DNA of 41,350 bases from a virus (IMGVR_UViG_3300033145_001228:1-41350), one strand, 5' to 3'; counted from the first letter of the stretch, positions 663 to 41,207 are shown. Notes: generated by a model not told the origin, from the letters alone. A program made the numbers and translations.

Positions 663-1364
663 TTATGTTGGATAAATTGCGCCAGATTGTGTTACACAAT
701 ATTTAACATGCGCTTCTGTTTCTGTCGGTGAAGGTGGATAATTATATACCCCCAACTTATAAATACCACTAAATGAAGAACTTAGTCTTGCATCATCACC
801 ACTACCAGCTAAAACCCAAGCACCGCCATTATCTTTAACCCACATAGTAAATGAATTTCTGTAAAAAATTACTCTAATAGTCCACCAGCTTGTATTATTA
901 AACGCATAAGCAAATTGTTGGACACTTGCTAAAACTGAACTTGTATCGTTATACCATACACTATCTTTACTTATAAAAATAACGTGAAAAGAAACGCCAT
1001 TAAAAAGTTGTATTGTAAAACAATCGAGGCTGGCGTTACTACCAACATATGCAGTTCCTAGTTGGTCAAACTTTACCTCTACCTGCATGGTAGCTGTTGG
1101 TATTTCAGGATTTGCTAATCCCCACAGATGTCTAAGCACAAAACTATCAGCACCACCAGCATTTCCTGCCTTACAATGCCATTGATCTGCGGGGCTTTCT
1201 TCATCGGTGAAAGTATTTGCAGTTGCCAAGCTCCAATCATCATAAATTTCTCCGCCATCTTGGTCTGAACCATCTATTCCGCTAGGATAATCTTGGATTA
1301 AATAATCATCAGTTTGTATTATGCCTGTTATGTCCGTGTCTGAATTTATTTCTTTTTTTCCCAT
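663..1364 (-). CDS. Tandem paralog B (233 aa, function unknown, candidate receptor-binding/decoration protein)
   Basis: Shares these blocks with both neighbours: I-x-GI[IL]QTD, EESPxxQxH, VKFDxL, [YL]DCFxI, DSVW, NxSW[WY]TIR, GDDA, T[TE]E[AV]H. No signal peptide. Confidence 0.8.
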   Translation of the reverse strand: MGKKEINSDTDITGIIQTDDYLIQDYPSGIDGSDQDGGEIYDDWSLATANTFTDEESPADQWHCKAGNAGGADSFVLRHLWGLANPEIPTATMQVEVKFDQLGTAYVGSNASLDCFTIQLFNGVSFHVIFISKDSVWYNDTSSVLASVQQFAYAFNNTSWWTIRVIFYRNSFTMWVKDNGGAWVLAGSGDDARLSSSFSGIYKLGVYNYPPSPTETEAHVKYCVTQSGAIYPT

Positions 1365-1373
1365 AATTTCATA

Positions 1374-2921
1374 TTAAGGTGTATACTTTTCCACCTCTAC
1401 TCCTTGAACCCAAATACTTAAACTGTCATCCACATTGGCTACAATATATGTATCAGAACCGTCGTCAGCGTTTAGAATTAATTTCTGGCCTTCATCTAAT
1501 AATATATCTACTTGAAAAGATTGGTCAGAAGAAAAATCGTTATCTGTTCCAACAACCGCTATAGTATCACTCACGTCGGGGATAGTTAATGTTCTTGTGT
1601 TCCCTGTTGTAATACCGCTTGCTTGAAAATCTACAATTTTAGTAATATCAGTTTCGTCAAATATTGTAAATTGATTGTCTGCAAAATTTGTTACAGTATT
1701 GGAACTTAAACTCCCCCCGCCTAATATACCAGCACGCAAGTCTTTTGTTGCTTCGACTGTCCATGTACCGCCACTTGCCACACTATGCTTAAATGTTATT
1801 CTTGCAACGAATATTCCTGTTGTACTGTCTTTCAGAAATTCTCTAGGGCCTGACAAGACATCGTAATTTTGAGAATCAGCAATAGCTGTAGATAAATTAT
1901 TATAACTTCCAGTGGGGAGATTCATAACCAACGGCGTATACTCACCTGTCTTGTTGGCAATTACACCGAATATAATATTAAAATATTTACCAGACATAGA
2001 ATCTCCATCTGCATCTGTAAGCTGAGTGTTCAGATTCGTTATATCGTCATATGGAGTCGTGTTATGGTTTACGACGTGCATAACATCTGTATCAGACATG
2101 TCTTTTGCTGGAACAGAATGGAGATGAGCTTGATAGGAAAATCCCGACGTAGTTTTAATATAAACATCATCAGGCGTGCCGACGTTTGTAACAATATCAA
2201 TAAAATTATCGCTTCCGTTACCGTCTATGCCTTTGAAATAGCCAGTGTGCATCCTGATGACTTCTGCCATGTGAAGCATATGCCCCATATTATTTGTACC
2301 TGCTAAATGGTCGTTCCAGTTCTGATTAATTAATGCACCTCGATTAGCAATATTTACAAAAGTTGCACTCTGAACAAAGAAGAATCCTACTTTGATGTGC
2401 TCTGTCGTGGGCCAAGCACTTGTTGATTTCGTAAGAACTTTTGTTGATTGAGGAATATATATCCAGTTTGCTTGCGGGGCTATATCACTTCCTGCGGTTA
2501 ATTCAATAGTGCAAATCGGAGTACAATCCAGCGGAGTATCAAAATCAGAGAATTGCATGATTAAATCACCGCCACCATTTGATTGCTCAAGAGTCATGTC
2601 AATAGTTGCACCATCGCTAGTTACAAAAGCGTCGAAGGTTTCTTTAAACGAACCATTGACAAATGTCCTCTGCAAGTATCTATTATCATGGTCTGTATTG
2701 GTTCCGGCTGTGTCCGGCATATCAGTAGCCGTTGAATGGACCGGCTGGATCCTTGTCCATAATCCGGTTGAAGAAAAGAATTGCAGCATATCCTCATCAG
2801 CTGCATTTATCGTTTCATCAAAATCACCTATTGAAGAGGTTGACCCAAATATATCAGCGCGGGCCAAAGGACAAAATAAAAACATAATCAAAATTGTAAT
2901 TATAAATTTATTTATCTTCAT
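1374..2921 (-). CDS. Fibre-like protein with Sec-type signal peptide (515 aa)
   Basis: N-terminus MKINKFIITILIMFLFCPLARA|D. The C-terminal part (NFADNQFTIFDETDITKIVDFQASGITTGNTRTLTIPDVSDTIAV) resembles motifs common in phage fibre proteins. Family assignment is from memory only. Confidence 0.55.
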   Translation of the reverse strand: MKINKFIITILIMFLFCPLARADIFGSTSSIGDFDETINAADEDMLQFFSSTGLWTRIQPVHSTATDMPDTAGTNTDHDNRYLQRTFVNGSFKETFDAFVTSDGATIDMTLEQSNGGGDLIMQFSDFDTPLDCTPICTIELTAGSDIAPQANWIYIPQSTKVLTKSTSAWPTTEHIKVGFFFVQSATFVNIANRGALINQNWNDHLAGTNNMGHMLHMAEVIRMHTGYFKGIDGNGSDNFIDIVTNVGTPDDVYIKTTSGFSYQAHLHSVPAKDMSDTDVMHVVNHNTTPYDDITNLNTQLTDADGDSMSGKYFNIIFGVIANKTGEYTPLVMNLPTGSYNNLSTAIADSQNYDVLSGPREFLKDSTTGIFVARITFKHSVASGGTWTVEATKDLRAGILGGGSLSSNTVTNFADNQFTIFDETDITKIVDFQASGITTGNTRTLTIPDVSDTIAVVGTDNDFSSDQSFQVDILLDEGQKLILNADDGSDTYIVANVDDSLSIWVQGVEVEKYTP

Positions 2922-3026: not shown

Positions 3027-4160
3027 TTAAAACCCATATCCTACTGTTACTGAGCCGCCACCGCCTGATTGTGTGTCGGTTTGATCTGCGCCCATGTTTG
3101 TATTATAGTCCCCAGTTAATCCGAAATTAGCTCCTGCACCAAAAATACCAACACCTTCTGCTGCTGTACTATCAGGTAGAGTGAAATCCCCACTTCCAGG
3201 GTTTGTTAATGTGATGTCTGAATCAATATCGTTTTGCCCTTCCGTTACATTTGAGTTACTTGAAGCGTCACCATCCCAAGAATTATAATCATATAAGTTG
3301 CTAGTGTATTCTGCTGTAAATGATACTGGCGTGGTACATTCATCAAAGAGATTATTTAAAAAGGTAGCATTGTTTCTAGTATTGCCATCAACGCAAGTGG
3401 TAGAATTATAAAACGTGTTGCCAATAATAGTTTCATTTGCGCTTGTTAGAAGAAGTCCTGTTGTGCAAGTATCCACAATATTTCCGATGAATGTGCCAAA
3501 TTGAGACATTTCTGCACATTGAACTGAATCATGCAAATAATTATTAATCCATGTTGCCCCCCAATTTCCGGTAGTAGTTATGTTTCCGTTATCGTCAGAA
3601 ATAATCTCACATCCAACAATATGTAATCCGTTTTCTGAGAAATGAACAGCTTGTGAAGAAGCGTTGGTCGAGCTATGGTCTATTCTAAGATTATACAGAA
3701 TTGAATCTACATCCATAGATACCCCATAGAATGCTCCTGTTTCAATATTTAGATTTGCAACTAGAAAATGGTCGTGAGGAGTTATCCTATAATCATTAGC
3801 TCCTGTTTGGAACAATGGCCTGTCCGAGCCATATGACCAATCAGCAGTTGTTGGCGGCTCTGCTGACGTTCCTGTTTTTACACCAATTAAGGCGCAAGGA
3901 AGTGCCGCAGTGCAGTTTCCTGTTGAAGCTAAACCACTTGTTATTGTATAAGTTCCATCTTCAAAGAAATATCTATCCCCTGCCTCTTGGCTACCTTCAA
4001 AGTCTGCTTCAAATTCTGAATAACTAAATGCAGAAGCCCAAGCCAAACCATCTTTCCCTGCGGCCCCTGCTACCGTTACGTAATAATCAGTTGCTGCACC
4101 CCAAGACATAGAGGGTATAAATATAATTAAGACAATTAATAATATACTTTTCTTATTCAA
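3027..4160 (-). CDS. Right-handed parallel beta-helix (pectate-lyase-like) protein with signal peptide; probable polysaccharide depolymerase
   Basis: Signal-like N-terminus MNKKSILLIVLIIFIPSMSWGAA. YYVTVAGAAGKDGLAWASAF start typical of beta-helix enzymes. Periodic motifs NLRIDHSS, IVGCEIISDD, INNYLHDS, FIGNIVDTC, IIGNTFYNS, FLNNLFDEC. Ends ..SVTVGYGF. Confidence 0.6.
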   Translation of the reverse strand: MNKKSILLIVLIIFIPSMSWGAATDYYVTVAGAAGKDGLAWASAFSYSEFEADFEGSQEAGDRYFFEDGTYTITSGLASTGNCTAALPCALIGVKTGTSAEPPTTADWSYGSDRPLFQTGANDYRITPHDHFLVANLNIETGAFYGVSMDVDSILYNLRIDHSSTNASSQAVHFSENGLHIVGCEIISDDNGNITTTGNWGATWINNYLHDSVQCAEMSQFGTFIGNIVDTCTTGLLLTSANETIIGNTFYNSTTCVDGNTRNNATFLNNLFDECTTPVSFTAEYTSNLYDYNSWDGDASSNSNVTEGQNDIDSDITLTNPGSGDFTLPDSTAAEGVGIFGAGANFGLTGDYNTNMGADQTDTQSGGGGSVTVGYGF

Positions 4161-4509
4161 TCACAGCCTCCAACCCCTCGTCTGTTATGAACTTTTCGAG
4201 CTGTTTGACTCTCGCATCAAGTTCTTCATAATAATTCAACTCAACAATTTCTTTTTCTGGTAGATAAATACTCTTATCAAAGGTATTGCTACCGTCAAGT
4301 AAACAGTTTATAACATTGCTTCTTATAAACATATTATTAATTACATTAGGTAGAGATGTATTCTCTTCCTCGCATATCATGTTCACCATAAAGAACATAT
4401 TTCCATTTGAGGCATAGTCAGCTTTAGGTTTTATGTTTTGTCTGCTGATAGTCGCTGCCAAGCAAACCCCACACATCATAAAAAATATAATCAAAGTCTT
4501 TCTTATCAT
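4153..4509 (-). CDS. Hypothetical secreted/anchored protein (118 aa)
   Basis: N-terminus MIRKTLIIFFMMCGVCLAA. Start/stop overlaps with neighbouring genes. Confidence 0.5.
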   Translation of the reverse strand: MIRKTLIIFFMMCGVCLAATISRQNIKPKADYASNGNMFFMVNMICEEENTSLPNVINNMFIRSNVINCLLDGSNTFDKSIYLPEKEIVELNYYEELDARVKQLEKFITDEGLEAVIE

Positions 4510-4512
4510 GTT

Positions 4513-4749
4513 CTATTTCTCCGAAAAATAAATGCTGCTGCCAGGCGGCAAGGCAAAACCTACATTATTTTCCCATTCAATATATTCCATAGCGTTAGCC
4601 CAAGAGGAACCACTTTTATCTCCCACACCTACATAGGCAACATATATTTCTTTTGGCTTTTTAATACTTCTAGTTTTCTCCAATGCTATTCCACCGAGAA
4701 GAAAAACCGTCAAACATAAAACTAATAAAACGCTTATTCTCTTAATCAA
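4513..4749 (-). CDS. 78-aa truncated paralog of the N-terminus of the beta-helix protein (remnant of a depolymerase cassette?)
   Basis: EIYVAYVGVGDKSGSSWANAMEYIEWE...PGSSIYFSEK aligns with DYYVTVAGAAGKDGLAWASAFSYSEFE...AGDRYFFEDG of 3027-4160. Has its own hydrophobic N-terminus and stops where the helix repeats would begin. Confidence 0.5.
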   Translation of the reverse strand: MIKRISVLLVLCLTVFLLGGIALEKTRSIKKPKEIYVAYVGVGDKSGSSWANAMEYIEWENNVGFALPPGSSIYFSEK

Positions 4750-4793: not shown

Positions 4794-5903
4794 CTAATCG
4801 TTATAACCATAAAATGATAAAGTACATTTAGTTACCGTTGCCGAGGATTCTATCTCGATACAAACTTGATCCCCCGCATCCCAGTCTGTTGTCATAGAAG
4901 TTAAAGAAGTATCGCTGGCAGAAACATCAGCAGATAGCGTTGGCTTCTCCGTTCCGGCTATGGAGTCACCATTTACTAATGGAGTGTCATTCCAAGTGTT
5001 TTTCCAAACATCTAATACTATACTTCCCGACTTATCACAATCAAAATACCATGCCGTAATCTTTTTATTGTTTGGTATTCTACTAGTACAAACAACCGGA
5101 TCAGTAATGCTTGCATCTATAGCAGTATCGCCATTCGTAATTACAAAATTGTGCATTATTGTCGCTTGATTGCTTAGGGCTGTTGATAACGCGGCAAAGG
5201 TGGTAAGGGCTGGCTCTTTATTATTAAACGTATCCCAATCTGTGTCGTTAAGATGTCCTGTCGTATCGGTATCTGCTACAACCGCTAAATGCGTAGCAAT
5301 AGCACTATTGATCTCTGTCGTGGCATCCGTACAGTTCTCTACTGCCCCTGCCGCATCAACCCCTAAAGGATATGAACCAGCCCCGCAATTTCCACCATTG
5401 GCTGCCAAAGCTGATGCCGTAGCACTCCTTAAATTTGCAACCTCTGTCACAGAGGCTACTACCAATGGCGGAGTTCCTGTTGCAACATCACTAGCAAAGG
5501 ACAAAGCCGTAATAATAAATGCCCCAACATCCCAACCAGCGGTCAATGGAACTGTACCATCGGCCAATAAATCTCCTGCCCCTGCCGCCGGACAATCTGT
5601 GCCATCTTCTAAGCATATTCCTTGAGTGTTTAGAGTTGTATCAACATGAAGATCACAGGAAGATGTTGAGCACTCAGTTGATGCAGTTCCAGGACTGGCC
5701 GCTTTAAACGCGTTACCTCCCTTACACACAAAAAGAGCCCCATCCGTATCAGAATCCGTATCCCAAAACTCATCACCAACAACACAAGTGGCCGGAACTG
5801 TTGTACCGGAAGGAGCCCGCAGAGGTCTACCGAATCCAAACTGAGCCTCTGCTACATGACCAACAAACAAGAACAAAATTAATAGAATTATTATCTTTTT
5901 CAT
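4794..5903 (-). CDS. Fibre-like protein with Sec-type signal peptide (369 aa)
   Basis: MKKIIILLILFLFVGHVAEA|Q. Internal LLADGTVPLTAGWDVGAFIITA and HLNDTDWDTFNNK motifs resemble phage fibre proteins (recognition from memory). Confidence 0.55.
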   Translation of the reverse strand: MKKIIILLILFLFVGHVAEAQFGFGRPLRAPSGTTVPATCVVGDEFWDTDSDTDGALFVCKGGNAFKAASPGTASTECSTSSCDLHVDTTLNTQGICLEDGTDCPAAGAGDLLADGTVPLTAGWDVGAFIITALSFASDVATGTPPLVVASVTEVANLRSATASALAANGGNCGAGSYPLGVDAAGAVENCTDATTEINSAIATHLAVVADTDTTGHLNDTDWDTFNNKEPALTTFAALSTALSNQATIMHNFVITNGDTAIDASITDPVVCTSRIPNNKKITAWYFDCDKSGSIVLDVWKNTWNDTPLVNGDSIAGTEKPTLSADVSASDTSLTSMTTDWDAGDQVCIEIESSATVTKCTLSFYGYND

Positions 5904-6259
5904 TATTGAACCGTTAATATTTTAATGTTAGCTGTTGCTCCTGAATTATTTGTTATAAAAATATTTATTATCTCTAATCCCATATCTCGCGGAATTTGAA
6001 GCTGGGCCTCAACATCCTTTAGAGTAATAACTGAATTACCAGTGTCATTAAACCTGATTGTAATGGTCTTGTCGCTTCTGATAAGACAGGCATGAGCCTT
6101 CTTCACGCTTGCAAAGGCATCCGCTTCATTATCGGAAACATCATAATTACTTTGACCATTATTAACCGTAAACTCAGCAGAATCATAGTTGTCATAAAAT
6201 TGCTGAGCCGTCAGCTTAGGAAGCTTTGTTGAATCATGAGCCTTCTTTTCTTTTCCCAT
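5903..6259 (-). CDS. Small beta-rich protein, paralog of 7154-7495 (118 aa)
   Basis: YDSAEFTVNNGQSNYDV...ITIRFND...FITNNSGATANIKILTV aligns with the 7154-7495 product. One-nt stop/start overlaps on both sides. Confidence 0.6.
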   Translation of the reverse strand: MGKEKKAHDSTKLPKLTAQQFYDNYDSAEFTVNNGQSNYDVSDNEADAFASVKKAHACLIRSDKTITIRFNDTGNSVITLKDVEAQLQIPRDMGLEIINIFITNNSGATANIKILTVQ

Positions 6260-7153: not shown

Positions 7154-7495
7154 TCAGTCTCCTTTTCTAACAGCTATTATTTTAATCGAAGCTGTACTGC
7201 CTGAGTTATTTGTTATGAACATATCCGTTATTTCCATAAGATCATCAAGCTCAAATGGTCTTGTTCTAGGAATGGTAACACCGCTGTTATTTGAGTTATT
7301 GAACTTGATTGTTATCTCCTCTGTTGTCCGGATATTTATTGTCGTATAAATCTTAAGCGAAACAAAAGCATTTGATTCATTGGCGCGCACATCATAATCA
7401 GACTGTCCGGTTGCAAGTGTAAACTCAATCGAATCGTACAGCCTCCCTAATGGCGGCTTGACCTTAAGTGAATCAAACGGACTATTTCCCCCCAC
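7154..7495 (-). CDS. Small beta-rich protein, paralog of 5903-6259 (about 113 aa, GTG start)
   Basis: YDSIEFTLATGQSDYDV...ITIKFNN...FITNNSGSTASIKIIAV. GTG at 7495 with AAAGG upstream. The longer track ORF (to 7720) runs through the preceding gene in another frame. Confidence 0.5.
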   Translation of the reverse strand: MGGNSPFDSLKVKPPLGRLYDSIEFTLATGQSDYDVRANESNAFVSLKIYTTINIRTTEEITIKFNNSNNSGVTIPRTRPFELDDLMEITDMFITNNSGSTASIKIIAVRKGD

Positions 7496-7883
7496 TTTTC
7501 TTACCTTTCTTCTTTTTTCTCTTTGCCGGTTTTTCTGTCTTATCCGCTTCAATGCCATGAGCATTGGCAGCATTTTCATGATCCTCTGATGAGGCCCCAT
7601 GATTATCATCAACCGAATCATCTCGCTCAGGTCCACTATCAGACGGAGATTCAAATTCTTTGGAAACATCTTCGCTCTTAGTTTCCGTAGCTGTTTTAAC
7701 TTCAGCAGGAAGAACCTCACAAATCATATTCCAATCTCTATCTCTCTGACCAAACAACCAATTAATAGCCTCAGCCGGATATTCCTTGATAGGAGTTTTC
7801 TTTGTGAATGTATACCGCTTACCGTTAAAATCCCAGGGAATCATATCCTCTGTGCCTCTGTACCTAATCCTTAATGTATCCAT
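7482..7883 (-). CDS. Hypothetical protein with acidic middle and KRKKKKGKK tail (133 aa)
   Basis: ATG at 7883 preceded by AAGGAGAAGATGAA. The track ORF start at 7943 lies inside the upstream membrane-protein gene. Confidence 0.55.
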   Translation of the reverse strand: MDTLRIRYRGTEDMIPWDFNGKRYTFTKKTPIKEYPAEAINWLFGQRDRDWNMICEVLPAEVKTATETKSEDVSKEFESPSDSGPERDDSVDDNHGASSEDHENAANAHGIEADKTEKPAKRKKKKGKKSGGK

Positions 7884-8917
7884 TTCATCTTCTCCTTTTT
7901 TGTTATTAAATAAAAACCAATTACAGCCATAATTGTTGGCCACATACGCGGAATTTCAAACGGATATTCCACAACCATAAGAACCATCAGCGCAATCATA
8001 GCAATCGTTTCATGATCAAACCGGATATTCTTAATAAAATCTCTCATAAACCATCCAATAAATAAGAATCCTGGCAAACCAACCGCAAATATAAATTGAA
8101 TCAAAGAGCTAAAAACATTATCCGCATAAACAGCTCCTTTTATAAATTGACTTGAAACAAAGGGAAATATACCTATGCCATATCCCTGTTGCGGACTATT
8201 AAAGATCATCATGATAGTTGGCTCCCACACTAACCATCTAATGTTCAAAGATTGAACAATCTGATCTTTAAACAATAAAAAACCAGAAATTCCGGTAATC
8301 ACAAGAAATATTCCGGATCCTATGTGTGAGGCGCGCTTAATTCTTAGAAAAATCATGAAAATCAGCAAAAACAATATCGTAACTTCTTTTAATGACAAGC
8401 AAACAACTACATATAATAAAGCCAGTAGAGGGTTAACTTTAATTGCAAAAGGTAGTGTTAAAGTGAGATATGTTGCCAGCCTGGGCCCTGAGCCCATCAT
8501 TCCACCTATTTCACCATAGCAAGGTAGATTAAAAATAGGGTTATATCCAATATTTTGAAGCGCCAATACAAAAATATTAACCAACCCACCCCATACCATG
8601 TATTTTAAAAAAACGTCGCTCCTAGAGGCATATAAAGCGATTATCCGGATTCCAATAAGAGATAAACATATCTTCAATGTTGCTGAGGTAATAGCACCAT
8701 CAAAGTTATGCCAAAACAATTGGAGTATTAAGAAAATAAGAAATATCCCCATAACCGGACAATTATAATGCCTCTTCGGTTTATCAATGAACGATGCGCC
8801 AACCAACGCCATTACAGCACAATAAAAGAATAAAACATTGAATCTTTCAAGATCAAACCCAGTTGTATAACAAATAGGGGATAACAGTAATATTGCCTTT
8901 AAGACTATATCAACCAT
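7871..8917 (-). CDS. Polytopic membrane protein of the O-antigen ligase / Wzy_C (PilO/PglL-type) family
   Basis: About 10 hydrophobic segments. RIKRASHIGSG and QQGYGIGIFPF resemble the Arg-containing loop and GxGxGxF motif of O-antigen ligase-like proteins. Confidence 0.6.
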   Translation of the reverse strand: MVDIVLKAILLLSPICYTTGFDLERFNVLFFYCAVMALVGASFIDKPKRHYNCPVMGIFLIFLILQLFWHNFDGAITSATLKICLSLIGIRIIALYASRSDVFLKYMVWGGLVNIFVLALQNIGYNPIFNLPCYGEIGGMMGSGPRLATYLTLTLPFAIKVNPLLALLYVVVCLSLKEVTILFLLIFMIFLRIKRASHIGSGIFLVITGISGFLLFKDQIVQSLNIRWLVWEPTIMMIFNSPQQGYGIGIFPFVSSQFIKGAVYADNVFSSLIQFIFAVGLPGFLFIGWFMRDFIKNIRFDHETIAMIALMVLMVVEYPFEIPRMWPTIMAVIGFYLITKKEKMKWIH

Positions 8918-8956: not shown

Positions 8957-9460
8957 TTAGAAGTCATACGTTACAGTTGCAAATACTTCCGTATCTATAC
9001 CAACAACAAATATACCTGTAGAAAATTGAGCTCCACCAGGAATATTAATATGATACGTTTCACCTGTTACAGCTATACTGACCTCGAATTTCGGAGTTCC
9101 AGTAGCACTTAAGGCATCATAAACTAGAACATAGTCAGCTGCGGATGTTGTAAGTCCACTAACCGTAATACTTGTTAGCCTTGCCGCACCTGTATGAACA
9201 AGCTTTCCCGCAGACATCTCTGAACCAACAATAGATGTTACAGTCTTTGGATATTCAAAAACGCTTGCCGAACCACGATTGTCAATCTCTAAAACCTTAC
9301 CACTCCGAGCGCCACCGATCGCAGTTGTTTGAGAAAACCCTTGATCGGATCCAGCAGTCCTGATATTCCTTCCGGTTGTTACTGTCGCATCACCGAAAAC
9401 AAAGGCCGGAACAGCCAACAACATTATAAGAAAAATAACAAAAATGAGCTTTTTATTCAT
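8957..9460 (-). CDS. Secreted beta-rich protein directly after the capsid gene (167 aa); possible small outer-membrane barrel
   Basis: MNKKLIFVIFLIMLLAVPAFVFG|D. Alternating-hydrophobic strands. C-terminus ..VFATVTYDF has a terminal Y-x-F like an OMP beta-signal. Confidence 0.45.
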   Translation of the reverse strand: MNKKLIFVIFLIMLLAVPAFVFGDATVTTGRNIRTAGSDQGFSQTTAIGGARSGKVLEIDNRGSASVFEYPKTVTSIVGSEMSAGKLVHTGAARLTSITVSGLTTSAADYVLVYDALSATGTPKFEVSIAVTGETYHINIPGGAQFSTGIFVVGIDTEVFATVTYDF

Positions 9461-12253: not shown

Positions 12254-12487
12254 TTAACCTAAAAACTTAACTAACGACTTAACGTATTTACAAGATGCTT
12301 CAATCATTCCTTTGGTATATCTATCAGTTTTAACTCTACAAATTTCCGGTCGCTCATAATAAATCGAACACAAATTATCATCATTCAAATGTTTACAAGT
12401 TCCATCACCGCGATCCAGGTCCTTAGAAACTAACCTAACGTATCGACAACAGTCTCCGCACTTTTCGCATTCCCATTTCATACCCAT
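12254..12487 (-). CDS. CxxCxxCC (YkgJ/UPF0153, formerly FliB-named) putative Zn/Fe-binding protein
   Basis: CEKCGDCCRYV ... CKHLNDDNLCSIYYERPEICR matches the family signature. The second ATG (12481) forms an ATGA overlap with the stop of the A24 peptidase gene. Confidence 0.7.
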   Translation of the reverse strand: MGMKWECEKCGDCCRYVRLVSKDLDRGDGTCKHLNDDNLCSIYYERPEICRVKTDRYTKGMIEASCKYVKSLVKFLG

Positions 12488-12861
12488 ATAAAAAATAAAC
12501 TCGGTATCAAAACAAATGGCGTAAACGGTCTAGGTTTAAATAAGAACGTATTCCTATGATAGTATATATTAAGAGCAAATGCAAACAATAAAATTAAAAA
12601 AGAATAATTCCCCATGAAAGCACCTACCATTGCCATCAGTTTTACATCCCCTCCGCAAAACGCACCTTTAGAAAAGATCAGAGCTCCAATCAAAAACATC
12701 AACAAAGCATAATCCCAATTACCAGTAAAATATATCCCAACCGCAATAGCCGGCAACACAATCACATTAGGAATAATCAATCTCTTAATATCACAAACTG
12801 TCAGAACAAACATAATTAATATAAATATCAGCGTCGGAAAAGACAAGTTAAGCTCTCCCAA
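12478..12861 (-). CDS. Minimal A24-family (prepilin peptidase / TadV / FlaK-like) membrane aspartyl protease, 127 aa
   Basis: Both catalytic-Asp motifs are present: VCDIKRLIIPN (first Asp) and CGGDVKLMAMVGAFMG (GxGDxKL). About 4 hydrophobic helices. No methyltransferase domain. Confidence 0.75.
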   Translation of the reverse strand: MGELNLSFPTLIFILIMFVLTVCDIKRLIIPNVIVLPAIAVGIYFTGNWDYALLMFLIGALIFSKGAFCGGDVKLMAMVGAFMGNYSFLILLFAFALNIYYHRNTFLFKPRPFTPFVLIPSLFFIWV

Positions 12862-16595: not shown

Positions 16596-16880
16596 TTATT
16601 TTCCGAACAAACTCATAATTGAGTTTATTATACTGAATCCTTTAATGTTAACAACCCCCATTGCATAGGCACTTGCTTTCGCGGTGTCAGAATTATCAAG
16701 ATTAAAAGCCCCTATCTCTGCACCAAGATCAATATGCTTAGATGTAAAAACAATATCATCAGATTTGACCTTGATACCTAAATCCATTTCATCCAACATT
16801 TCAATATTGTATGCAAACGCGGGTGAAACTACTGCAAACATCAACAACATTACTACTGCGATTACAATTACTTTCTTCAT
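16596..16880 (-). CDS. Small secreted protein between TerL and portal (94 aa)
   Basis: MKKVIVIAVVMLLMFAVVSPAFA|Y Sec-type signal. SD AGGAGG upstream. Confidence 0.55.
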   Translation of the reverse strand: MKKVIVIAVVMLLMFAVVSPAFAYNIEMLDEMDLGIKVKSDDIVFTSKHIDLGAEIGAFNLDNSDTAKASAYAMGVVNIKGFSIINSIMSLFGK

Positions 16881-18907: not shown

Positions 18908-19191
18908 ACATTTTCCTTTTCAAATAATTTAATAAGCGCACCAATGCAATTCTCAACATCTACTTCTTCCAGCGGGGCGTTTAATTGAGTAATCAAAATA
19001 TACTCTATCTGGTGTCTTTCCGGCATTTCCGCCCTAGCCTTTATAATCTCTTGTTTGAGATAGGGGTCAAGGGCTTTAGCTAATTCCTCAGTAGATATAT
19101 CAGATTCATACCAAACCATTAAATCTCTATGGATGTCTTTCCCATTATCAAGCAATATTCGTTCAATCTCCGGCTTCTTAATGTCTTTCAT
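18904..19191 (-). CDS. Hypothetical protein (95 aa)
   Basis: ORF with GGAGG upstream; acidic, helical. Confidence 0.6.
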   Translation of the reverse strand: MKDIKKPEIERILLDNGKDIHRDLMVWYESDISTEELAKALDPYLKQEIIKARAEMPERHQIEYILITQLNAPLEEVDVENCIGALIKLFEKENV

Positions 19192-19239
19192 AGAACCTCC
19201 AATAAAGACCTTAGTAGGTCTGAGTTAAACCGTTTAGGT

Positions 19240-19500
19240 CTAGCCATCGCCATAGCCATAGCCAGAGCAATCGCCAGAGCCAGAGCCAGAGCCAGAGCCA
19301 TAGCCATAGCCAGAGCCATAGCCAGAGCCAGAGCCATCGCCAGAGCCATCGCCATAGCCATAGCCATCGCCATAGCCATAGCCAGAGCCATCGCCAGAGC
19401 CAGAGCCAGAGCCATCGCCAGAGCCAGAGCCAGAGCCATAGCCATAGCCAGAGCCATAGCCAGAGCCAGAGAGCTTGCCTATCATGTCTATTTTTTCCAT
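19240..19500 (-). CDS. Gly/Ser/Tyr/Asp repeat peptide (86 aa)
   Basis: MEKIDMIGKLSGSGYGSGYGYGSGSGSGDG... The ATG at 19500 is preceded by AAAGGAGTTAAACA. The other two frames open over the repeat have no comparable start context. Confidence 0.6.
   Translation of the reverse strand: MEKIDMIGKLSGSGYGSGYGYGSGSGSGDGSGSGSGDGSGYGYGDGYGYGDGSGDGSGSGYGSGYGYGSGSGSGSGDCSGYGYGDG
19243..19470. repeat. Tandem hexanucleotide repeat, about 38 units of GCC-A[GT][AC] on the plus strand
   Basis: Uninterrupted run of gccata/gccaga/gccatc units. Open in three frames. Confidence 0.9.
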
Positions 19501-20661: not shown

Positions 20662-20921
20662 TTCTTAGTCTCCAATGTAATTTTTCTAGTTTCATAATTT
20701 ATCTGAAGAAACAATCCATCTTTAGTAATTTCAGCCAGCGTTGGAAGATGATATGTTTCAATAATCGAATCCCAATTCTTATCTCTCATTAAAATTGCTT
20801 GTGTCTCTAAATTCTGCAAGGTTAAACGCTGAGAAGTTATTGATGACATCTGAGCCTCAATAGCTTTAAAAACATCAACAAACTTCTGATCAACTGTTGC
20901 TAATTGATGATCACATGTCAT
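20658..20921 (-). CDS. Hypothetical protein (87 aa)
   Basis: ORF coupled by overlaps on both sides. Confidence 0.6.
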   Translation of the reverse strand: MTCDHQLATVDQKFVDVFKAIEAQMSSITSQRLTLQNLETQAILMRDKNWDSIIETYHLPTLAEITKDGLFLQINYETRKITLETKK

Positions 20922-23026
20922 TTTAATCCAGCCTTTTTTATCATATTCAGATTATGCCGCGCATCCTCCAATCTTGGATTAATAGAAAGAGCTTTATTTA
21001 AGAATAAAGTAGCCGTTTGATAGCGCTTCTGGATCAACTCAAACGATCCTAAATTACACCATCCAACATCATAGCGCGGAAAATTATTCACAAGATTAAT
21101 GGTAATAATATAAGACTCCTCAAGCCGGCCAGTATTCCGGAGAACCTGACAAAGCTTATCACCACCATCTAAGAATATTAGATCCCGCTTATTAACATTC
21201 ATATTTGACATAAATTCTCGATAATATTGTTCGGCCTTCTGAATATCTTCCTGATGTTTGGATTCTTTTGATATTTCAAACCAGGCATCAGCAAGCTTCT
21301 TAACAAGAAGAATCCGAAGCTCTTGAATATCAACCGCCATATTATTAATAACAACTTCATCTTGAGCATAAATTGGAGCAAGCATCTCAACAACCTTCAA
21401 ATAATCCTCTTCCCGATAATACAGCTCAGCTAAGTTTATAGCTGATCCAATACTCTGTGTCTCATCATAAGCCTTATGAAATGACTGCTTGGCCGCCATT
21501 ATCTGACCATTCTTTTGGCAACATAACCCACGTAAAATCCACATCTTGTCAGTAAGAGGATCTGGTTTCTCAGGATCAGGAGGAAATTTCTCAAAACATT
21601 TATCAATATACTTAATAGCCTTAATATTATTCTTATGCCCGCCCTGTATCATAAGAGAATTAACAATAGCAAAGTAATTAAGCGAGTGCGGATCCCCTTC
21701 CATGTCAGCATGAGCAAGCTTCAAGTTGCGGAGGTTCTTCCTCTTCACATCTTTCCACATACGATTTCCAAGATGATGACAAACAATATTGGACCGGCTA
21801 ACCTTAGCGCCGGCCTCAAGCATTGAAAATGTAACATCTTCATGCAGCTTATTGCGGAAATAAAAACCTTTCCCATTCTTAAATAGCCGATTATGAAGAA
21901 GGATCTCTTTCGTGCCTTTCTCTGTGTAGCTGTGAACCTCACATTTAAAGGCATCCGCTTCCGGATTCCGCATAATATAATCTTTAAGTATAAAAGGGTT
22001 ATCAATAAAATCATCTGTGTCATGCCATAAAATATAATCTTTGGTTGCCATTTCTAAAGACTTATTTCTCATTTCACTGAAATCAGTGAAATGAATGTAC
22101 TGCCATCCTATAGAATTTTCACCATTTTTAATCATATAATTATGGCAAAACTTTACAAACTTTTTACCAAAATTAAAAGACCTATGATTTTTATAATTAA
22201 AAACAATCTTAACCTCATCAACCCACCCATCAAAGCTTGACAATGCCCTCTTCAATACCTCCGGCTTCTCAGAATCAGCTACAATCATGCACACAGAAAT
22301 AGTAGCCTTACAATCCCTCAGCAACACCTTCATAATCTTAGAAACATCATTCTTAGCTGAATCCTTAACCCACCGCTTAAGCGCCGCGCCATCCCGATCG
22401 TACATACTCTGGCTATTTGTATATTCATAAATCTTATCCTTCTCAACCTTTTCATTCATAAAATGATTATGCTCAATAACAACCTCCGGCAAATAATATA
22501 GCCGGTTAATACCTCTACCGATCGTATACCACACATTATCACCGCAAAGATGTGTGAGCGAAGGCATCTGAAGATAGCCAACCGCGCGGACAATATCACC
22601 TGATATAACAGAAGTGGTACACATATTCTGACCCTGAATCTTATCATCACCGAAAGCTATCCCGCTACCAGTATTCTTCTTGATCACATCCATCAACTTC
22701 AGATCCCAATTCTTTGTGTGAAAGATAAAATCATCATTGCAAGGCATGTAATAATCCATATCCGGAAAGGATTCTGTTGCTATTCCGTTGAATATTTCCG
22801 TAATTGTCTTTTGCTTACCTATCATATATGGATACGGCTTGATATGCTGACGATACCTCTGCAACTCAGGATCATTATCATCAAGATAAAAAAGGACAGT
22901 TGTGTCGCGTGAAGCTGTTTTCTCAAAAGACTGAATAAACTTCTTCAACATCTTTGGCCGGCCGCGTGTAGGCACAATTACTAATAATTTCTTTCCTTCA
23001 ATTTGTTCAGTGTTTTTAGAATCCAT
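20918..23026 (-). CDS. Two GT-A glycosyltransferase domains fused to C-terminal TPR repeats (702 aa)
   Basis: Domain 1: LLVIVPTRGRP...FYLDDNDPE. Domain 2: ISVCMIVADSEKPEVLKRALSS...ILWHDTDDF. The C-terminal third has TPR-like repeats (AINLAELYYREEDYLKVVEML, NLGSFELIQKRYQTATLFLNKALSINP). Confidence 0.7.
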   Translation of the reverse strand: MDSKNTEQIEGKKLLVIVPTRGRPKMLKKFIQSFEKTASRDTTVLFYLDDNDPELQRYRQHIKPYPYMIGKQKTITEIFNGIATESFPDMDYYMPCNDDFIFHTKNWDLKLMDVIKKNTGSGIAFGDDKIQGQNMCTTSVISGDIVRAVGYLQMPSLTHLCGDNVWYTIGRGINRLYYLPEVVIEHNHFMNEKVEKDKIYEYTNSQSMYDRDGAALKRWVKDSAKNDVSKIMKVLLRDCKATISVCMIVADSEKPEVLKRALSSFDGWVDEVKIVFNYKNHRSFNFGKKFVKFCHNYMIKNGENSIGWQYIHFTDFSEMRNKSLEMATKDYILWHDTDDFIDNPFILKDYIMRNPEADAFKCEVHSYTEKGTKEILLHNRLFKNGKGFYFRNKLHEDVTFSMLEAGAKVSRSNIVCHHLGNRMWKDVKRKNLRNLKLAHADMEGDPHSLNYFAIVNSLMIQGGHKNNIKAIKYIDKCFEKFPPDPEKPDPLTDKMWILRGLCCQKNGQIMAAKQSFHKAYDETQSIGSAINLAELYYREEDYLKVVEMLAPIYAQDEVVINNMAVDIQELRILLVKKLADAWFEISKESKHQEDIQKAEQYYREFMSNMNVNKRDLIFLDGGDKLCQVLRNTGRLEESYIITINLVNNFPRYDVGWCNLGSFELIQKRYQTATLFLNKALSINPRLEDARHNLNMIKKAGLK

Positions 23027-23871: not shown

Positions 23872-24490
23872 GTTCTTCCTTTTCGTTTAAATAGTTTTCA
23901 AAGTTGGTTGCATTAAATAAAGTGCTGGGCCGCAAATAATCCATCATCTTAGGATCTTTAAGCCACTTCCCGCACTTACAATCAATAACCCTCTTAAAGT
24001 CCTCAATCGACCGGCCTTCATTAAACCGCGCCGCAATCAAATTAAGAATTGGTTTAGTGTTTATGGAAAAAGATTTTCTTGTTTTTAGGTTTAAATACCT
24101 AATTGGTTCCGTAAGGTCGGGCTTGCCCGACAATATATCTTCTCTACTCTTCTCTACTCTACTCTTCTCTACTCTAGGTAACGGCTTCGGTTCATCTTCC
24201 GTTACGGTATCTAAAAAGTTGTGTAACATTTGTAACGTCAATGATATAGGTCGTTTTTTAAGATCAAACCCCTTACTTCTCCAATATCTCTCAGTATTAG
24301 GTAAAGGCTTCCTTGCTTGAAGCTCTAAAAGTATCATTGAAACGAATCTCCATTTATCAACCTCAGAGTCAATAAGCTCAAACTCCGGATCCCCTTGAAC
24401 CATGCTAATAAAGATCTTTCCCCATTGCATAGTCCGGTCTTTATACCCTGGATGATGCTGCTCTAAGCTTCTAACATGGATATATTCCAT
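23828..24490 (-). CDS. Replication initiation-type protein with a conserved phage C-terminus (Phg_2220_C / DnaD-like)
   Basis: The C-terminal KCGKWLKDPKMMDYLRPSTLFNATNFENYLNE matches that domain signature. Contains an internal RVEKS-RVEKS duplication. Confidence 0.65.
   Translation of the reverse strand: MEYIHVRSLEQHHPGYKDRTMQWGKIFISMVQGDPEFELIDSEVDKWRFVSMILLELQARKPLPNTERYWRSKGFDLKKRPISLTLQMLHNFLDTVTEDEPKPLPRVEKSRVEKSREDILSGKPDLTEPIRYLNLKTRKSFSINTKPILNLIAARFNEGRSIEDFKRVIDCKCGKWLKDPKMMDYLRPSTLFNATNFENYLNEKEEHDNIPPSLRKFIKR
24139..24173. repeat. Short tandem repeat inside the replication gene: CTTCTCTACT x3 with an extra CTACT
   Basis: Read directly; encodes RVEKSRVEKSRE on the minus strand. 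Confidence 0.8.
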
Positions 24491-24651
24491 TATTTAACCC
24501 CCATAAGATTGTTACCTTTTCCTCCACCTTCCCAAGAAGTCTCCCCTCCTGGCATATAATAAATCCACCGGCCAAAATCATACACCCGCCAAAGCTTATT
24601 TCCTTCAGAATCAATAGAAACAACTTGAGCCCTTTTTTTTTCTTCAAAACT

Positions 24652-24906
24652 TTATTGTTTTAACTTTGGGAAAAAAGGTATAAACATCGAGCTAAGAAAT
24701 CCAATCAAAATAATAACTAACATTATTTCAGGTAAAGTAAATCCTACTTTCCTCTTCAACTGGCATCCTAAATAATCCAATACTCCCCATGTCTTAATTC
24801 CAACAATTGTGTTTTGTGGAGGCGTTACAAGCCTTCCAAAAATCTTAAATCCTCGGTTCGTTAAATAGGCCGCTGCTTCATCCTCATGGTTAAATCTTTT
24901 TTTCAT
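24652..24906 (-). CDS. Pilin-like mini-protein carrying a class III (prepilin) signal motif
   Basis: ..QLKRKVG|FTLPEIMLVIILIGFLSSMFIPFFPKLKQ has basic residues, Gly at -1, Phe at +1, Glu at +5 and then a hydrophobic helix. SD AAGGAG lies before the ATG at 24906. An internal TTG (giving MKRKVG|FTLPE) is an alternative start. Confidence 0.55.
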   Translation of the reverse strand: MKKRFNHEDEAAAYLTNRGFKIFGRLVTPPQNTIVGIKTWGVLDYLGCQLKRKVGFTLPEIMLVIILIGFLSSMFIPFFPKLKQ

Positions 24907-24918
24907 CTTCTACTCCTT

Positions 24919-24988
24919 AAATAAAAAGCGGGCAGGGAGAGAGGCTAACCATCCTCGCTAGAGGAACCTCTCTTTAATCCCCACCCAC
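24919..24988 (-). terminator. Long stem-loop plus U-run abutting the SD of the pilin-like gene
   Basis: On the minus strand, GUGGGUGGGG..AGAGAGG..CCUC-UAGC-GAGG..CCUCUCU-CCCUGCCCGC is followed by UUUUUAUUU. Confidence 0.5.
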
Positions 24989-25023
24989 AAAAAAAGATCA
25001 TTATCCTCGTCGGAAAATGATCT
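24989..25023 (-). terminator. Intrinsic terminator
   Basis: 8-bp stem agatcatt/aatgatct with a 13-nt loop, followed on the minus strand by a T6 run. Confidence 0.6.
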
Positions 25024-25076
25024 AATTGTTTTTTTATGTTTTTCATAATGGTTACTTATCCTCTAGCGTATGAATT

Positions 25077-25105
25077 ATTATGCGCTTCAATTTTTAATTT
25101 GTCAA
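25077..25105 (-). promoter_or_regulatory. Sigma70-type promoter
   Basis: On the minus strand: TTGACA - 17 nt - CATAAT, starting 8 nt after the stop of 25113-25490. Confidence 0.55.
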
Positions 25106-40517: not shown

Positions 40518-41207
40518 CTATTTTGGGAATAATGCCCCTGCTGATATTTTTATATATTCTACATGCGCCTCTGTGGTAGCTGGACTTACTGGAAAATTTA
40601 TCACTCCAATTCTTATATTGCCGTTACTTGCGATATTGGGGTCTGCGTCATCACCTGCTCCATTTCTAGCCCATGCCCCATCGTCGTCTCTCGAATACAT
40701 TATAAATTCATCTCCAAACCATACTATTCTTATTGTGTACCAACTTACGTTATCAAAAGTTGTACCGAATTGGCTAACAAAAGCATTGGTAGAATCATAG
40801 AGCCAGACGCTATCAGACGTTATCATCATATTATGTCTATATGTTCCATTGTAAGACTGTATCTGGAAACAATCGTAAGTATCAGAAGTTCCATTAAAAC
40901 CACCCGCTAAAGCATCAAACTTAACTTTTAGTTGAATAGTATAAGCATAAATATTTGTTAATTTATTAAAAGTTTTGGTTTTCTTAGCGTAACTATTAGC
41001 CCCTGCTCCATCGCCAGCCAAAAGATGAAGTTGTCCAGCAGGGCTTTCTTCTACTGTAGCTGTACCTGCTTTACTGTCATTCCAATCGGTTATATCCTCC
41101 CAATCTTCATCTTTAATATCTGCACGAATACTATCTTGCTGAATGTATTTGTCAGTCTGGATAATACCTTCTATGTCTACGTCTGAATTGTAAGTTTTTA
41201 TTCCCAT
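40518..41207 (-). CDS. Tandem paralog C (229 aa)
   Basis: Aligns end to end with paralogs A and B (GIIQTD, EESPAGQLH, VKFDAL, YDCFQIQ, DSVWLYD, NVSWYTIR, GDDA, TTEAHV). Confidence 0.8.
   Translation of the reverse strand: MGIKTYNSDVDIEGIIQTDKYIQQDSIRADIKDEDWEDITDWNDSKAGTATVEESPAGQLHLLAGDGAGANSYAKKTKTFNKLTNIYAYTIQLKVKFDALAGGFNGTSDTYDCFQIQSYNGTYRHNMMITSDSVWLYDSTNAFVSQFGTTFDNVSWYTIRIVWFGDEFIMYSRDDDGAWARNGAGDDADPNIASNGNIRIGVINFPVSPATTEAHVEYIKISAGALFPK

What the first reader, a model, noticed from the sequence alone, without database searches (positions are those of the whole stretch)
24490..24906. Prepilin-motif mini-gene with an in-frame stop followed by a 53-codon open extension
The 84-aa ORF ends ..QLKRKVG|FTLPEIMLVIILIGFLSSMFIPFFPKLKQ. 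That is a textbook type IV prepilin cleavage site (Gly -1, Phe +1, Glu +5, hydrophobic alpha1-N helix). There is no globular pilin domain, and the site is preceded either by an unusual 54-aa soluble N-terminal part or, from an internal TTG, by the classic short leader MKRKVG.

The 161-nt gap after its TAA (24652-24654) is open in the same frame for 53 codons (SFEEKKRAQVVSIDSEGNKLWRVYDFGRWIYYMPGGETSWEGGGKGNNLMGVK). It ends in a TAATG overlap with the next gene, and an A9 run lies right after the stop.

Possible readings:
(a) a pilin-like gene split by a nonsense mutation;
(b) programmed TAA readthrough giving short and long forms;
(c) a deliberate headless pilin that poisons or caps host type IV pili (superinfection exclusion), or that acts as a decoy substrate for the phage A24 peptidase.
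Basis: partly seen in the sequence, partly recalled or inferred. Interest (0 to 1): 0.75.

Follow-up and report, generated by a model that had tools for sequence, protein, structure and literature searches.

The report
Phage mini-pilin gene broken by stop
The short pilin-like gene and the open stretch after it are one small phage gene, intact in 15 relatives. Here a single TAA stop interrupts it, most likely an ordinary nonsense mutation, not a designed two-form or headless gene.

Summary
A minus-strand ORF (24906..24652, 84 aa) carries a prepilin-type motif (KRKVG|FTLPE plus a hydrophobic helix). It ends at TAA, and the same frame stays open for 53 codons up to a TAATG overlap with the next gene.

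The 53 codons are a real coding domain. Fifteen homologues, all from phage-like metagenome contigs, are single uninterrupted ORFs of 85-109 aa. Each has an N-terminal membrane anchor followed by this domain (Q-I-I-S-V-D-x-x-G-N-K-L-W-R-V-Y-D...Y-I-Y-Y-M-P-K-G-E-T-S-W...G-K...M-G-V-K). The anchor is a prepilin-type signal in about nine members including the window, a plain transmembrane helix in five, and lipoprotein-like in two.

The window copy keeps every conserved residue and a coding-type codon pattern. Its stop lies in the variable linker, where the closest homologue has CAG (Gln).

Nothing points to recoding:
- TAA is the main stop codon in this genome (38 of 63).
- No tRNA gene is present.
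- No RNA structure stands out at the stop.
- No homologue has a stop there.

Best reading: a recently nonsense-interrupted copy, or a strain variant, of a rare uncharacterised phage mini-pilin gene. Programmed readthrough, a selected headless pilin and an assembly error remain possible but are less likely. The phage does encode an A24 peptidase.

The parts
24652..24906 (-). Called 84-aa ORF: N-terminal 49-aa extension, prepilin-like leader and cleavage motif, hydrophobic helix, then a premature TAA
   Evidence: It equals P0001, the only gene called here in the source contig.
24913..24918 (-). Shine-Dalgarno AAGGAG, 6 nt before the ATG at 24906
   Evidence: sequence read directly
24760..24906 (-). 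N-terminal 49 codons that no homologue has. Codon usage fits this frame. No detectable relatives and no confident fold.
   Evidence: In-frame codon score 8.4, against off-frame scores of -12.6 and -17.6. All homologues start 3-11 residues before the cleavage-site Gly. The single-sequence AF2 model is low-confidence.
24757..24759 (-). In-frame TTG preceded by AGGA-N6. This alternative start would give the short basic leader MKRKVG, like the homologues.
   Evidence: start-codon use is inferred, not shown
24673..24744 (-). Class III (prepilin-type) signal: Gly-1 | Phe+1 ... Glu+5, then a hydrophobic alpha1-N-like helix
   Evidence: Pfam N_methyl 18.6 bits, below the 21.2 cut-off. The PDB sequence search hits Geopilin PilA-N, PilA, MshA and GspG over this stretch only. 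It is the only such motif in the window.
24652..24654 (-). In-frame TAA in the variable linker between anchor and beta-domain. It aligns with CAG (Gln) in the closest homologue, P0030.
24493..24651 (-). The 53-codon 'extension': the conserved C-terminal beta-domain of the family, with no start codon of its own before a late GTG
   Evidence: 46-55% overall identity to the eight closest homologues (39% to P0032), and about 70% within this domain. All invariant and near-invariant columns are kept. pN 0.20-0.29 against pS 0.62-0.83. Codon score 13.6 in frame.
24633..24641 (-). A9 run, part of GAA GAA AAA AAA AGG, which encodes the Glu/Lys/Arg-rich linker also seen in homologues
   Evidence: It lies downstream of the stop, so slippage here cannot bypass the TAA.
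24488..24492 (-). TAATG: the stop of the extension frame overlaps the start of the 220-aa replication-protein gene
25077..25105 (-). Near-consensus sigma-70-type promoter (TTGACA-17-CATAAT) upstream of the gene
   Evidence: 11 of 12 matches
24927..24988 (-). Long stable hairpin followed by UUUUUAUUU, just before the SD of the gene. It looks like a terminator or attenuator.
   Evidence: -40.4 kcal/mol for the whole 104-nt stretch folded, 24907..25010; z = -3.6
12478..12861 (-). Phage-encoded A24 (prepilin-type) aspartic peptidase, a possible processing enzyme for the motif
   Evidence: PF01478, 44.8 bits against a cut-off of 26.5. It is conserved in the head module of related phage contigs.

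Best explanation
The 84-aa ORF and the 53-codon 'extension' are one gene. It belongs to a rare, uncharacterised family of phage-borne mini-pilins of about 90 aa. Each member has a short basic leader, a prepilin-type cleavage site and an alpha1-N-like transmembrane helix. A Glu/Lys/Arg-rich linker follows, then a beta-sheet domain of about 45 aa that would sit on the outer face of the cytoplasmic membrane or in a type IV filament.

In this contig a single TAA, most simply CAA to TAA, interrupts the linker. Ribosomes therefore terminate after the helix. Only an anchor-only product is made in quantity: 84 aa from the ATG, or 35 aa from the internal TTG. The beta-domain is not expressed beyond background readthrough.

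The domain is still intact, so either the mutation is recent or it is a variant within the sampled population.

Inferred function of the intact family: an early or accessory (moron-type) envelope protein, processed by a prepilin peptidase (the host's, or the phage's own A24 enzyme). It would mask or modify a surface or pilus receptor, giving superinfection exclusion.

Shown: the homology, the single-gene architecture in relatives, the position of the stop, and the absence of recoding signals. Inferred: how recent the mutation is, processing, topology and function.
For: - Two homologues with one continuous ORF came from the first search. More came from the profile search of 1.84 billion representatives, from metagenome loci and from a second profile search. 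That makes 15 intact members against one interrupted (alignment A5).
- The window keeps all invariant and near-invariant columns.
- pN is far below pS for the extension against every homologue.
- Codon usage of the extension fits frame 0: 13.6, against 16.3 +/- 5.9 for in-frame genes and -16.4 +/- 7.6 off-frame.
- The closest homologue reads CCA CAG AGT where the window reads CAA TAA AGT.
- TAA ends 38 of 63 genes, and there is no tRNA.
- There is no notable RNA fold at the stop.
- Both shifted frames hit stops within 10 codons (sequence), so frameshifting cannot rescue the gene.
- No other gene in the window looks disrupted.
- Pilin-like anchor: N_methyl passes the cut-off in two members, and PDB profile hits are only to type IV pilins and GspG.
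- The AF2 model of P0003 shows helix 3-43 plus four strands.
- Family members sit among small early-type genes in phage-like contigs.
Against: - The extension shows no decay at all. The hypermutable A9 run is in frame and the TAATG coupling to the next gene is preserved. This would also be expected if the domain were still translated.
- No close relative of this phage was found, so whether the stop is conserved or polymorphic could not be tested.
- This copy uniquely has an extra 49-codon N-terminal part with coding-type codon usage. That suggests the gene has been evolving along its own path.
- The function is entirely inferred. The anchor type varies within the family (prepilin-type, plain TM, lipoprotein-like), so pilus incorporation may not be the point.
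Confidence: 0.65

Rival explanations
1. Programmed or leaky TAA readthrough (or a CAA-to-CAA ribosome hop over 30 nt) gives two products from one gene: an abundant anchor-only form and a minor full-length mini-pilin.
For: - The downstream domain is perfectly preserved and in frame, including the A9 run and the TAATG overlap.
- The stop lies in a tolerant linker.
- The base after the stop is A. From my own knowledge, this is a weaker UAA context in E. coli than U or G.
- A CAA codon precedes the stop, and the next in-frame CAA is the conserved Gln of K-A-Q-I-I-S. A hop would restore ...KLKQ|VVSID.
Against: - None of the 15 homologues has a stop.
- TAA is the commonest terminator in this genome (38 of 63).
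- There is no suppressor tRNA.
- There is no significant structure around the stop (z = -0.82). The 7-bp hairpin that encloses the stop in its loop is A-U rich and weak.
- From general knowledge, UAA is the least leaky stop in bacteria.
- A matching CAA within 30 nt is expected by chance fairly often.
Confidence: 0.08
2. The truncation is selected. The phage benefits from a headless pilin, consisting of leader plus alpha1-N helix only. It would enter or jam the host's type IV filament machinery, or occupy the prepilin peptidase. The result would be blocked pilus-dependent superinfection.
For: - The truncated product keeps the complete cleavage motif and polymerisation helix.
- The phage carries its own A24 peptidase.
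- Truncated 60-residue PilA-like proteins occur in six Pseudomonas phages and have been proposed to act this way (PMC12952977). My tblastn and PHROG hits to Pseudomonas phages Ab06 and Ab11 and to phrog_10597 cover the same kind of protein.
- This copy also has a unique N-terminal addition.
Against: - If the short form had been the selected state for long, the 159 nt after the stop should have decayed. Instead every conserved residue is kept.
- No relative shares the truncation.
- The family's conserved part is the beta-domain, not the anchor. The anchor is replaced by a plain TM helix or a lipoprotein-like signal in seven members.
Confidence: 0.12
3. The stop is not in the real genome. It is a consensus or assembly error, or a minority allele fixed by the assembler, and the phage makes the full-length protein.
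For: - This is a single metagenome contig with one member sequence.
- The domain is intact.
- A one-base change from CAA would be enough.
Against: - Substitution errors in assembled consensus are rare (general knowledge).
- The rest of the contig shows tidy gene overlaps and no other broken gene.
- This cannot be tested without reads.
Confidence: 0.12

Closest known systems
Phage-encoded type IV pilus components: P-FimU, P-PilA and the truncated 60-residue P-PilA of Pseudomonas phages (Sztanko et al., Cell Rep 2026, PMC12952977)
   Same: - A phage gene with a prepilin-type N-terminus.
- Small size and accessory-gene context.
- The proposed role is superinfection exclusion, by entering or disturbing the pilus.
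- The truncated P-PilA family is anchor-only, like the product left by the stop here.
- Weak sequence matches over the helix to Pseudomonas phages Ab06 and Ab11 and to phrog_10597 and phrog_3433.
   Different: - The head domain here is a roughly 45-aa beta-domain with no similarity to FimU or PilA heads, and no PDB fold match.
- Host unknown.
- No experimental data.
- The truncation here is unique to one copy, not a family trait.
Type IV pilins and pseudopilins (class III signal peptide proteins; Pfam N_methyl PF07963)
   Same: - Gly-1, hydrophobic +1, Glu+5 and a hydrophobic alpha1-N helix.
- The helix-plus-beta-sheet 'lollipop' layout predicted for homologue P0003.
- Profile hits to PilA-N, PilA, MshA and GspG.
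   Different: - Only about 90 aa in all.
- The window copy is below the Pfam cut-off and has Pro at +4.
- A 54-aa leader if the ATG is used.
- Seven of the 16 family members lack the motif altogether.
Geobacter PilA-N / PilA-C split pilin (PDB Geopilin domain 1 entries)
   Same: - Best PDB sequence match for the anchor (E = 1.5e-4 for the profile).
- From my own knowledge, this is a natural case of a pilin divided into a helix-only part and a separate head part.
   Different: In Geobacter the head part is a separate gene with its own start and export signal. Here the downstream part has no start codon or signal, so it cannot be made on its own.
Small membrane-anchored or lipoprotein superinfection-exclusion proteins of phages (Cor, Llp, Ltp, Sie2009 type)
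   Same: - A tiny anchor plus a small extracytoplasmic domain, encoded among early or accessory genes.
- Two family members have a lipoprotein-like signal. One of them (P0014) weakly matches the Cor PHROG over its signal peptide.
   Different: No homology of the beta-domain to any of them. This is a resemblance of design only.
Pfam DUF4884 (PF16225)
   Same: Sub-threshold matches of the beta-domain in P0014 (21.9 bits), P0010 (18.2) and P0003 (12.1).
   Different: All are below the 30-bit cut-off. The window copy gives no match.

Membership tests
Type IV pilin-like proteins (class III signal peptide) | Gly (or Ala/Ser) at -1, hydrophobic residue at +1, Glu at +5 | tested here: met
   KRKVG|FTLPE. 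The motif is also present in P0003, P0004, P0005, P0028, P0029, P0030, P0031 and the L006 ORF.
Type IV pilin-like proteins (class III signal peptide) | Hydrophobic alpha1-N stretch of about 20 residues directly after the motif | tested here: met
   IMLVIILIGFLSSMFIPFF; 14 of the 16 residues after Glu+5 are hydrophobic. PDB hits fall on pilin N-termini only.
Type IV pilin-like proteins (class III signal peptide) | Pfam N_methyl (PF07963) at or above the gathering score | tested here: not met
   The window scores 18.6 bits against 21.2. Homologues P0004 (23.8) and the L006 ORF (32.9) pass.
Type IV pilin-like proteins (class III signal peptide) | Short, basic leader peptide (about 5-30 residues) | tested here: inconclusive
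   From the ATG with the strong SD the leader is 55 residues (Met1-Gly55). From the internal TTG (AGGA-N6-TTG) it is MKRKVG, like the homologues. Start use cannot be decided from sequence.
Type IV pilin-like proteins (class III signal peptide) | Globular head: beta-sheet packed on the C-terminal half of alpha1 | tested here: inconclusive
   AF2 of homologue P0003 gives helix 3-43 plus four strands, with a mean pLDDT of only 68. There is no significant PDB fold match. In the window the head is cut off by the TAA.
Type IV pilin-like proteins (class III signal peptide) | Cleavage and N-methylation by a prepilin peptidase; assembly into a filament | not testable with these tools
   An A24 peptidase gene is present in the same phage. 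No link between the two genes is shown, and they do not co-occur in the held fragments of other contigs.
Programmed stop-codon readthrough genes | The stop is conserved among relatives, with a conserved coding extension | tested here: not met
   The extension is conserved, but 0 of 15 relatives has a stop at or near this position.
Programmed stop-codon readthrough genes | A stimulatory context: leaky stop type, downstream RNA structure, or a suppressor tRNA | tested here: not met
   The stop is TAA. Fold z = -0.82. No tRNA gene. TAA is the commonest terminator.
Truncated phage PilA-like ('headless') proteins (PMC12952977; phrog_10597) | The family-wide ORF ends shortly after the alpha1 helix | tested here: not met
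   Only the window copy ends there. All relatives continue into the beta-domain. The phrog_10597 match is weak (E = 1e-3, or 9.5e-5 with the extension added).

The most novel reading that the evidence does not exclude
The TAA is a functional leaky stop (or hop site). From one gene the phage would make a fixed ratio of two forms: an anchor-only 'headless' pilin and a full-length mini-pilin. Both would be processed by the phage's own A24 peptidase, to cap or poison the host's type IV filaments during infection. This would be the first programmed UAA recoding event in a tailed phage accessory gene, and a phage-encoded peptidase-substrate pair.
Probability: 0.06. Interest if true: 0.75.

Novelty: new member of a known kind. 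Interest (0 to 1): 0.3.

Why it matters
The stop itself is probably an ordinary nonsense mutation in an accessory gene, which matters little.

What is worth keeping is the family it reveals. It is a very rare set: 16 members found across searches of 5.8 billion protein clusters and 1.84 billion representatives. The members are roughly 90-aa phage proteins that join a prepilin-type, plain or lipoprotein anchor to a conserved beta-domain of unknown fold.

They add to the recently described idea that phages encode pilus components to shut out competing phages. In this phage the gene also sits alongside a phage-borne A24 peptidase that is conserved in the head module. That pairing could be tested directly.

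Tried and rejected
- **DNA search against isolated phages.** blastn of the region found no match.
- **IMG/VR and GTDB genomes.** Scans for the domain found nothing.
- **Synteny through the downstream replication gene.** The one relative found (L008) has an HNH-type gene upstream instead of a mini-pilin. The gene is therefore not syntenic, and no close relative of this phage could be found to test conservation of the stop.
- **Exact look-up of the 220-aa neighbour.** Not on record.
- **Frameshift rescue.** Both shifted frames hit stops between the T6 run and the A9 run (sequence). The A9 run is downstream of the stop. Rejected.
- **Alternative genetic code or suppressor tRNA.** Rejected.
- **Overlapping +1-frame ORF 24647..24471 (58 aa).** It is also open in homologues but is only 40-47% identical, against about 70% in the main frame. 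It is a shadow of the main frame.
- **Suspected second broken gene at 7154..7943.** This resolves into two genes with a GTG start.
- **Fold search of the P0003 model against PDB.** Nothing significant.
- **Single-sequence AF2 of the 84-aa product.** Low confidence and uninformative for the N-terminal part.
- **My first impression that the N-terminal part resembles YraN or Hjc-type nucleases.** No Pfam or PDB support.
- **Rfam.** Only a sub-threshold IS605-orfB-I hit upstream: 24.6 bits against a 94.2 gathering score.
- **dN/dS to date the mutation.** Synonymous sites are saturated, so only 'pN far below pS' can be said.

Full report
**1. The observation**

All genes in the window lie on the minus strand. 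The same frame then stays open for 53 codons (24651..24493). A second TAA (24492..24490) shares its last base with the ATG of the next gene.

That next gene encodes a 220-aa Phg_2220_C / DnaD-like replication protein. An A9 run lies at 24641..24633. The motif KRKVG|FTLPE followed by a hydrophobic stretch is the only class-III-like signal in the six-frame translation of the whole window.

Pfam N_methyl scores 18.6 bits, just under the 21.2 cut-off. The motif is therefore good but not 'textbook'. Same-frame open neighbours are common here, so openness by itself means little.

**2. What the extension is**

A search with the fused sequence found two proteins besides the window's own ORF. These are P0002 (92 aa) and P0003 (94 aa).
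- Both are single ORFs with an N-terminal hydrophobic helix followed by the window's 'extension'.
- The shared sequence reads ...RKAQIISVDxEGNKLWRVYD..YIYYMPKGETSW..GK...MGVK.

Further members came from three sources:
- A profile search of 1.84 billion representatives.
- A metagenome scan.
- A second profile search.

The family now has 16 members (alignment A5). All 15 relatives are uninterrupted ORFs of 85-109 aa. They lie in phage-like contigs full of small genes, next to genes such as DNA ligase, a RuvB-like ATPase, an integrase, MazG and SMC-like ATPases.

Evidence that the extension has evolved as coding sequence:
- The window copy keeps every invariant and near-invariant column.
- Non-synonymous differences are far fewer than synonymous ones against every relative: pN 0.20-0.29 against pS 0.62-0.83.
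- Its codon usage fits frame 0. The score is 13.6, against 16.3 +/- 5.9 for in-frame pieces of the phage's long genes and -16.4 +/- 7.6 off-frame.

The extension is therefore the C-terminal domain of the same gene, not a chance open stretch.

**3. The anchor**

- About nine members including the window have a prepilin-type N-terminus: MNKRG|FHIFE, MKNKG|FSILE, MNKG|FTLIE, KYKG|FSLLE and others. Two of them pass the Pfam N_methyl cut-off.
- Five members have an ordinary transmembrane helix, and two have a lipoprotein-like signal.
- A profile of the family matches solved structures only over its first 37 positions. Those matches are only to type IV pilins and GspG, and the best is Geobacter PilA-N.
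- AlphaFold2 on P0003 with a shallow alignment gives a long helix (residues 3-43) followed by four beta-strands, with mean pLDDT 68. This is a miniature pilin layout.
- No significant PDB fold match was found.
- The beta-domain has only sub-threshold similarity to Pfam DUF4884.

**4. The stop**

It lies in the variable Glu/Lys/Arg-rich linker between helix and beta-domain. The closest relative, P0030, reads CCA CAG AGT ATA GAA where the window reads CAA TAA AGT TTT GAA. A single C-to-T change in a Gln codon would create it.

Nothing points to recoding:
- TAA terminates 38 of 63 genes.
- No tRNA gene is present.
- The RNA around the stop folds no better than shuffled sequence (z = -0.82).
- Both shifted frames meet stops before the A9 run, so slippage cannot bypass the TAA.
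- No relative has a stop.

A CAA-to-CAA hop of 30 nt would restore ...KLKQ|VVSID. This is noted as a curiosity, but such a codon match is expected by chance fairly often.

The rest of the contig shows no other broken gene.

**5. Interpretation**

The simplest account is a nonsense mutation in an accessory gene. It is either recent or a variant in the sampled population, because the 159 nt downstream show no decay.

What cannot be excluded:
- A consensus error.
- Low-level functional readthrough.
- A truncation that is itself useful.

The last option has a precedent. Sztanko et al. (PMC12952977) showed that prophage FimU-like minor pilins enter the pilus and block pilus-tip phages. They also noted a family of 60-residue truncated PilA-like proteins in six Pseudomonas phages. 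My weak tblastn and PHROG matches over the helix fall on proteins of that kind. In this family, however, the conserved part is the beta-domain, and only this one copy is truncated.

**6. Peculiarities of this copy**

- It has 49 extra codons upstream of the leader, starting at an ATG with a strong AAGGAG. Their codon usage fits the frame. They have no relatives and no confident fold.
- An internal TTG with AGGA-N6 would give the short leader MKRKVG seen in relatives. Which start is used is unknown.
- Upstream lie a near-consensus promoter (25105..25077) and a long hairpin followed by a U-run (24988..24927), directly before the ribosome-binding site.

**7. The peptidase**

ORF 12861..12478 is a Peptidase_A24 domain protein. 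Its relatives occupy the same place, between portal and capsid genes, in other phage contigs. It has no PHROG and no match in isolated phages.

It is a possible processing enzyme for the mini-pilin. However, the two genes do not co-occur in the fragments I hold, so a functional pair is only a hypothesis.

**8. Verdict**

The finding is a broken copy of a new, rare member of the known class of phage-encoded pilin-like proteins. Interest is modest. The family and the head-module A24 peptidase are more interesting than the stop.

Noticed in passing
window 12478..12861 (-); L010 784-1152; L012 7428-7874: A small A24 (prepilin-type) aspartic peptidase is conserved inside the head module of this phage lineage. 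The gene order is portal ... A24, a 59-aa ORF, a CxxCxxCC protein, a 350-aa protein, then the Phage_capsid_3 capsid gene. It has no PHROG family and no tblastn match in 50,697 isolated phage genomes. A polytopic membrane protease at the place where a prohead protease usually sits is odd.
   Followed up: partly
window 16596..16880, 8957..9460, 4794..5903, 4513..4749, 4153..4509, 3027..4160, 1374..2921 (all -): Many ORFs downstream of the capsid gene, where tail and fibre genes are expected, begin with Sec-type signal peptides (for example MKKIIILLILFLFVGHVAEAQ). A 348-aa polytopic membrane protein lies among them at 7871..8917. This is unusual for virion proteins of a tailed phage.
   Followed up: no
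window 19241..19468 (ORF 19188..19457, -): A hexanucleotide tandem repeat (TAGCCA x 38, 84% matches) encodes an (M/L)A dipeptide repeat protein, MALAMAMALALALAM...
   Followed up: partly
window 24927..25105 (-): A near-consensus sigma-70-type promoter (TTGACA-17-CATAAT) is followed by a 33-aa ORF (25046..24945). A long hairpin with a U-run comes next (z = -3.6 for the 104-nt stretch 24907..25010 that contains it), ending just before the SD of the mini-pilin gene. This could be an attenuator or a terminator of the upstream unit. Rfam gives only a sub-threshold IS605-orfB-I hit: 24.6 bits against 94.2.
   Followed up: partly
window 663..1364 and 40518..41207 (-): Paralogous genes of about 230 aa sit near the two ends of the contig. 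Both begin MGxK...SD.DI.GIIQTD.Y.
   Followed up: no
window 5903..6259 and 7154..7493 (-): Two paralogous small genes have the shared ending ...ITNNSG(A/S)TA(N/S)IKI... The second probably starts at a GTG that overlaps the end of the preceding Lys-rich ORF (7482..7943).
   Followed up: partly
window 24471..24647 (-); L001 1353-1478; L007 475-615; L006 759-881: The +1 frame over the beta-domain is open in the window and in several homologues, at 40-47% identity. This is most likely a shadow of the conserved main frame.
   Followed up: yes
window 20918..23026 (-); L006 883-1191: A 702-aa protein with two glycosyltransferase-like regions and C-terminal TPR repeats lies about 1.5 kb downstream of the mini-pilin gene. 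In L006 a GT2-like ORF directly follows the mini-pilin homologue.
   Followed up: no
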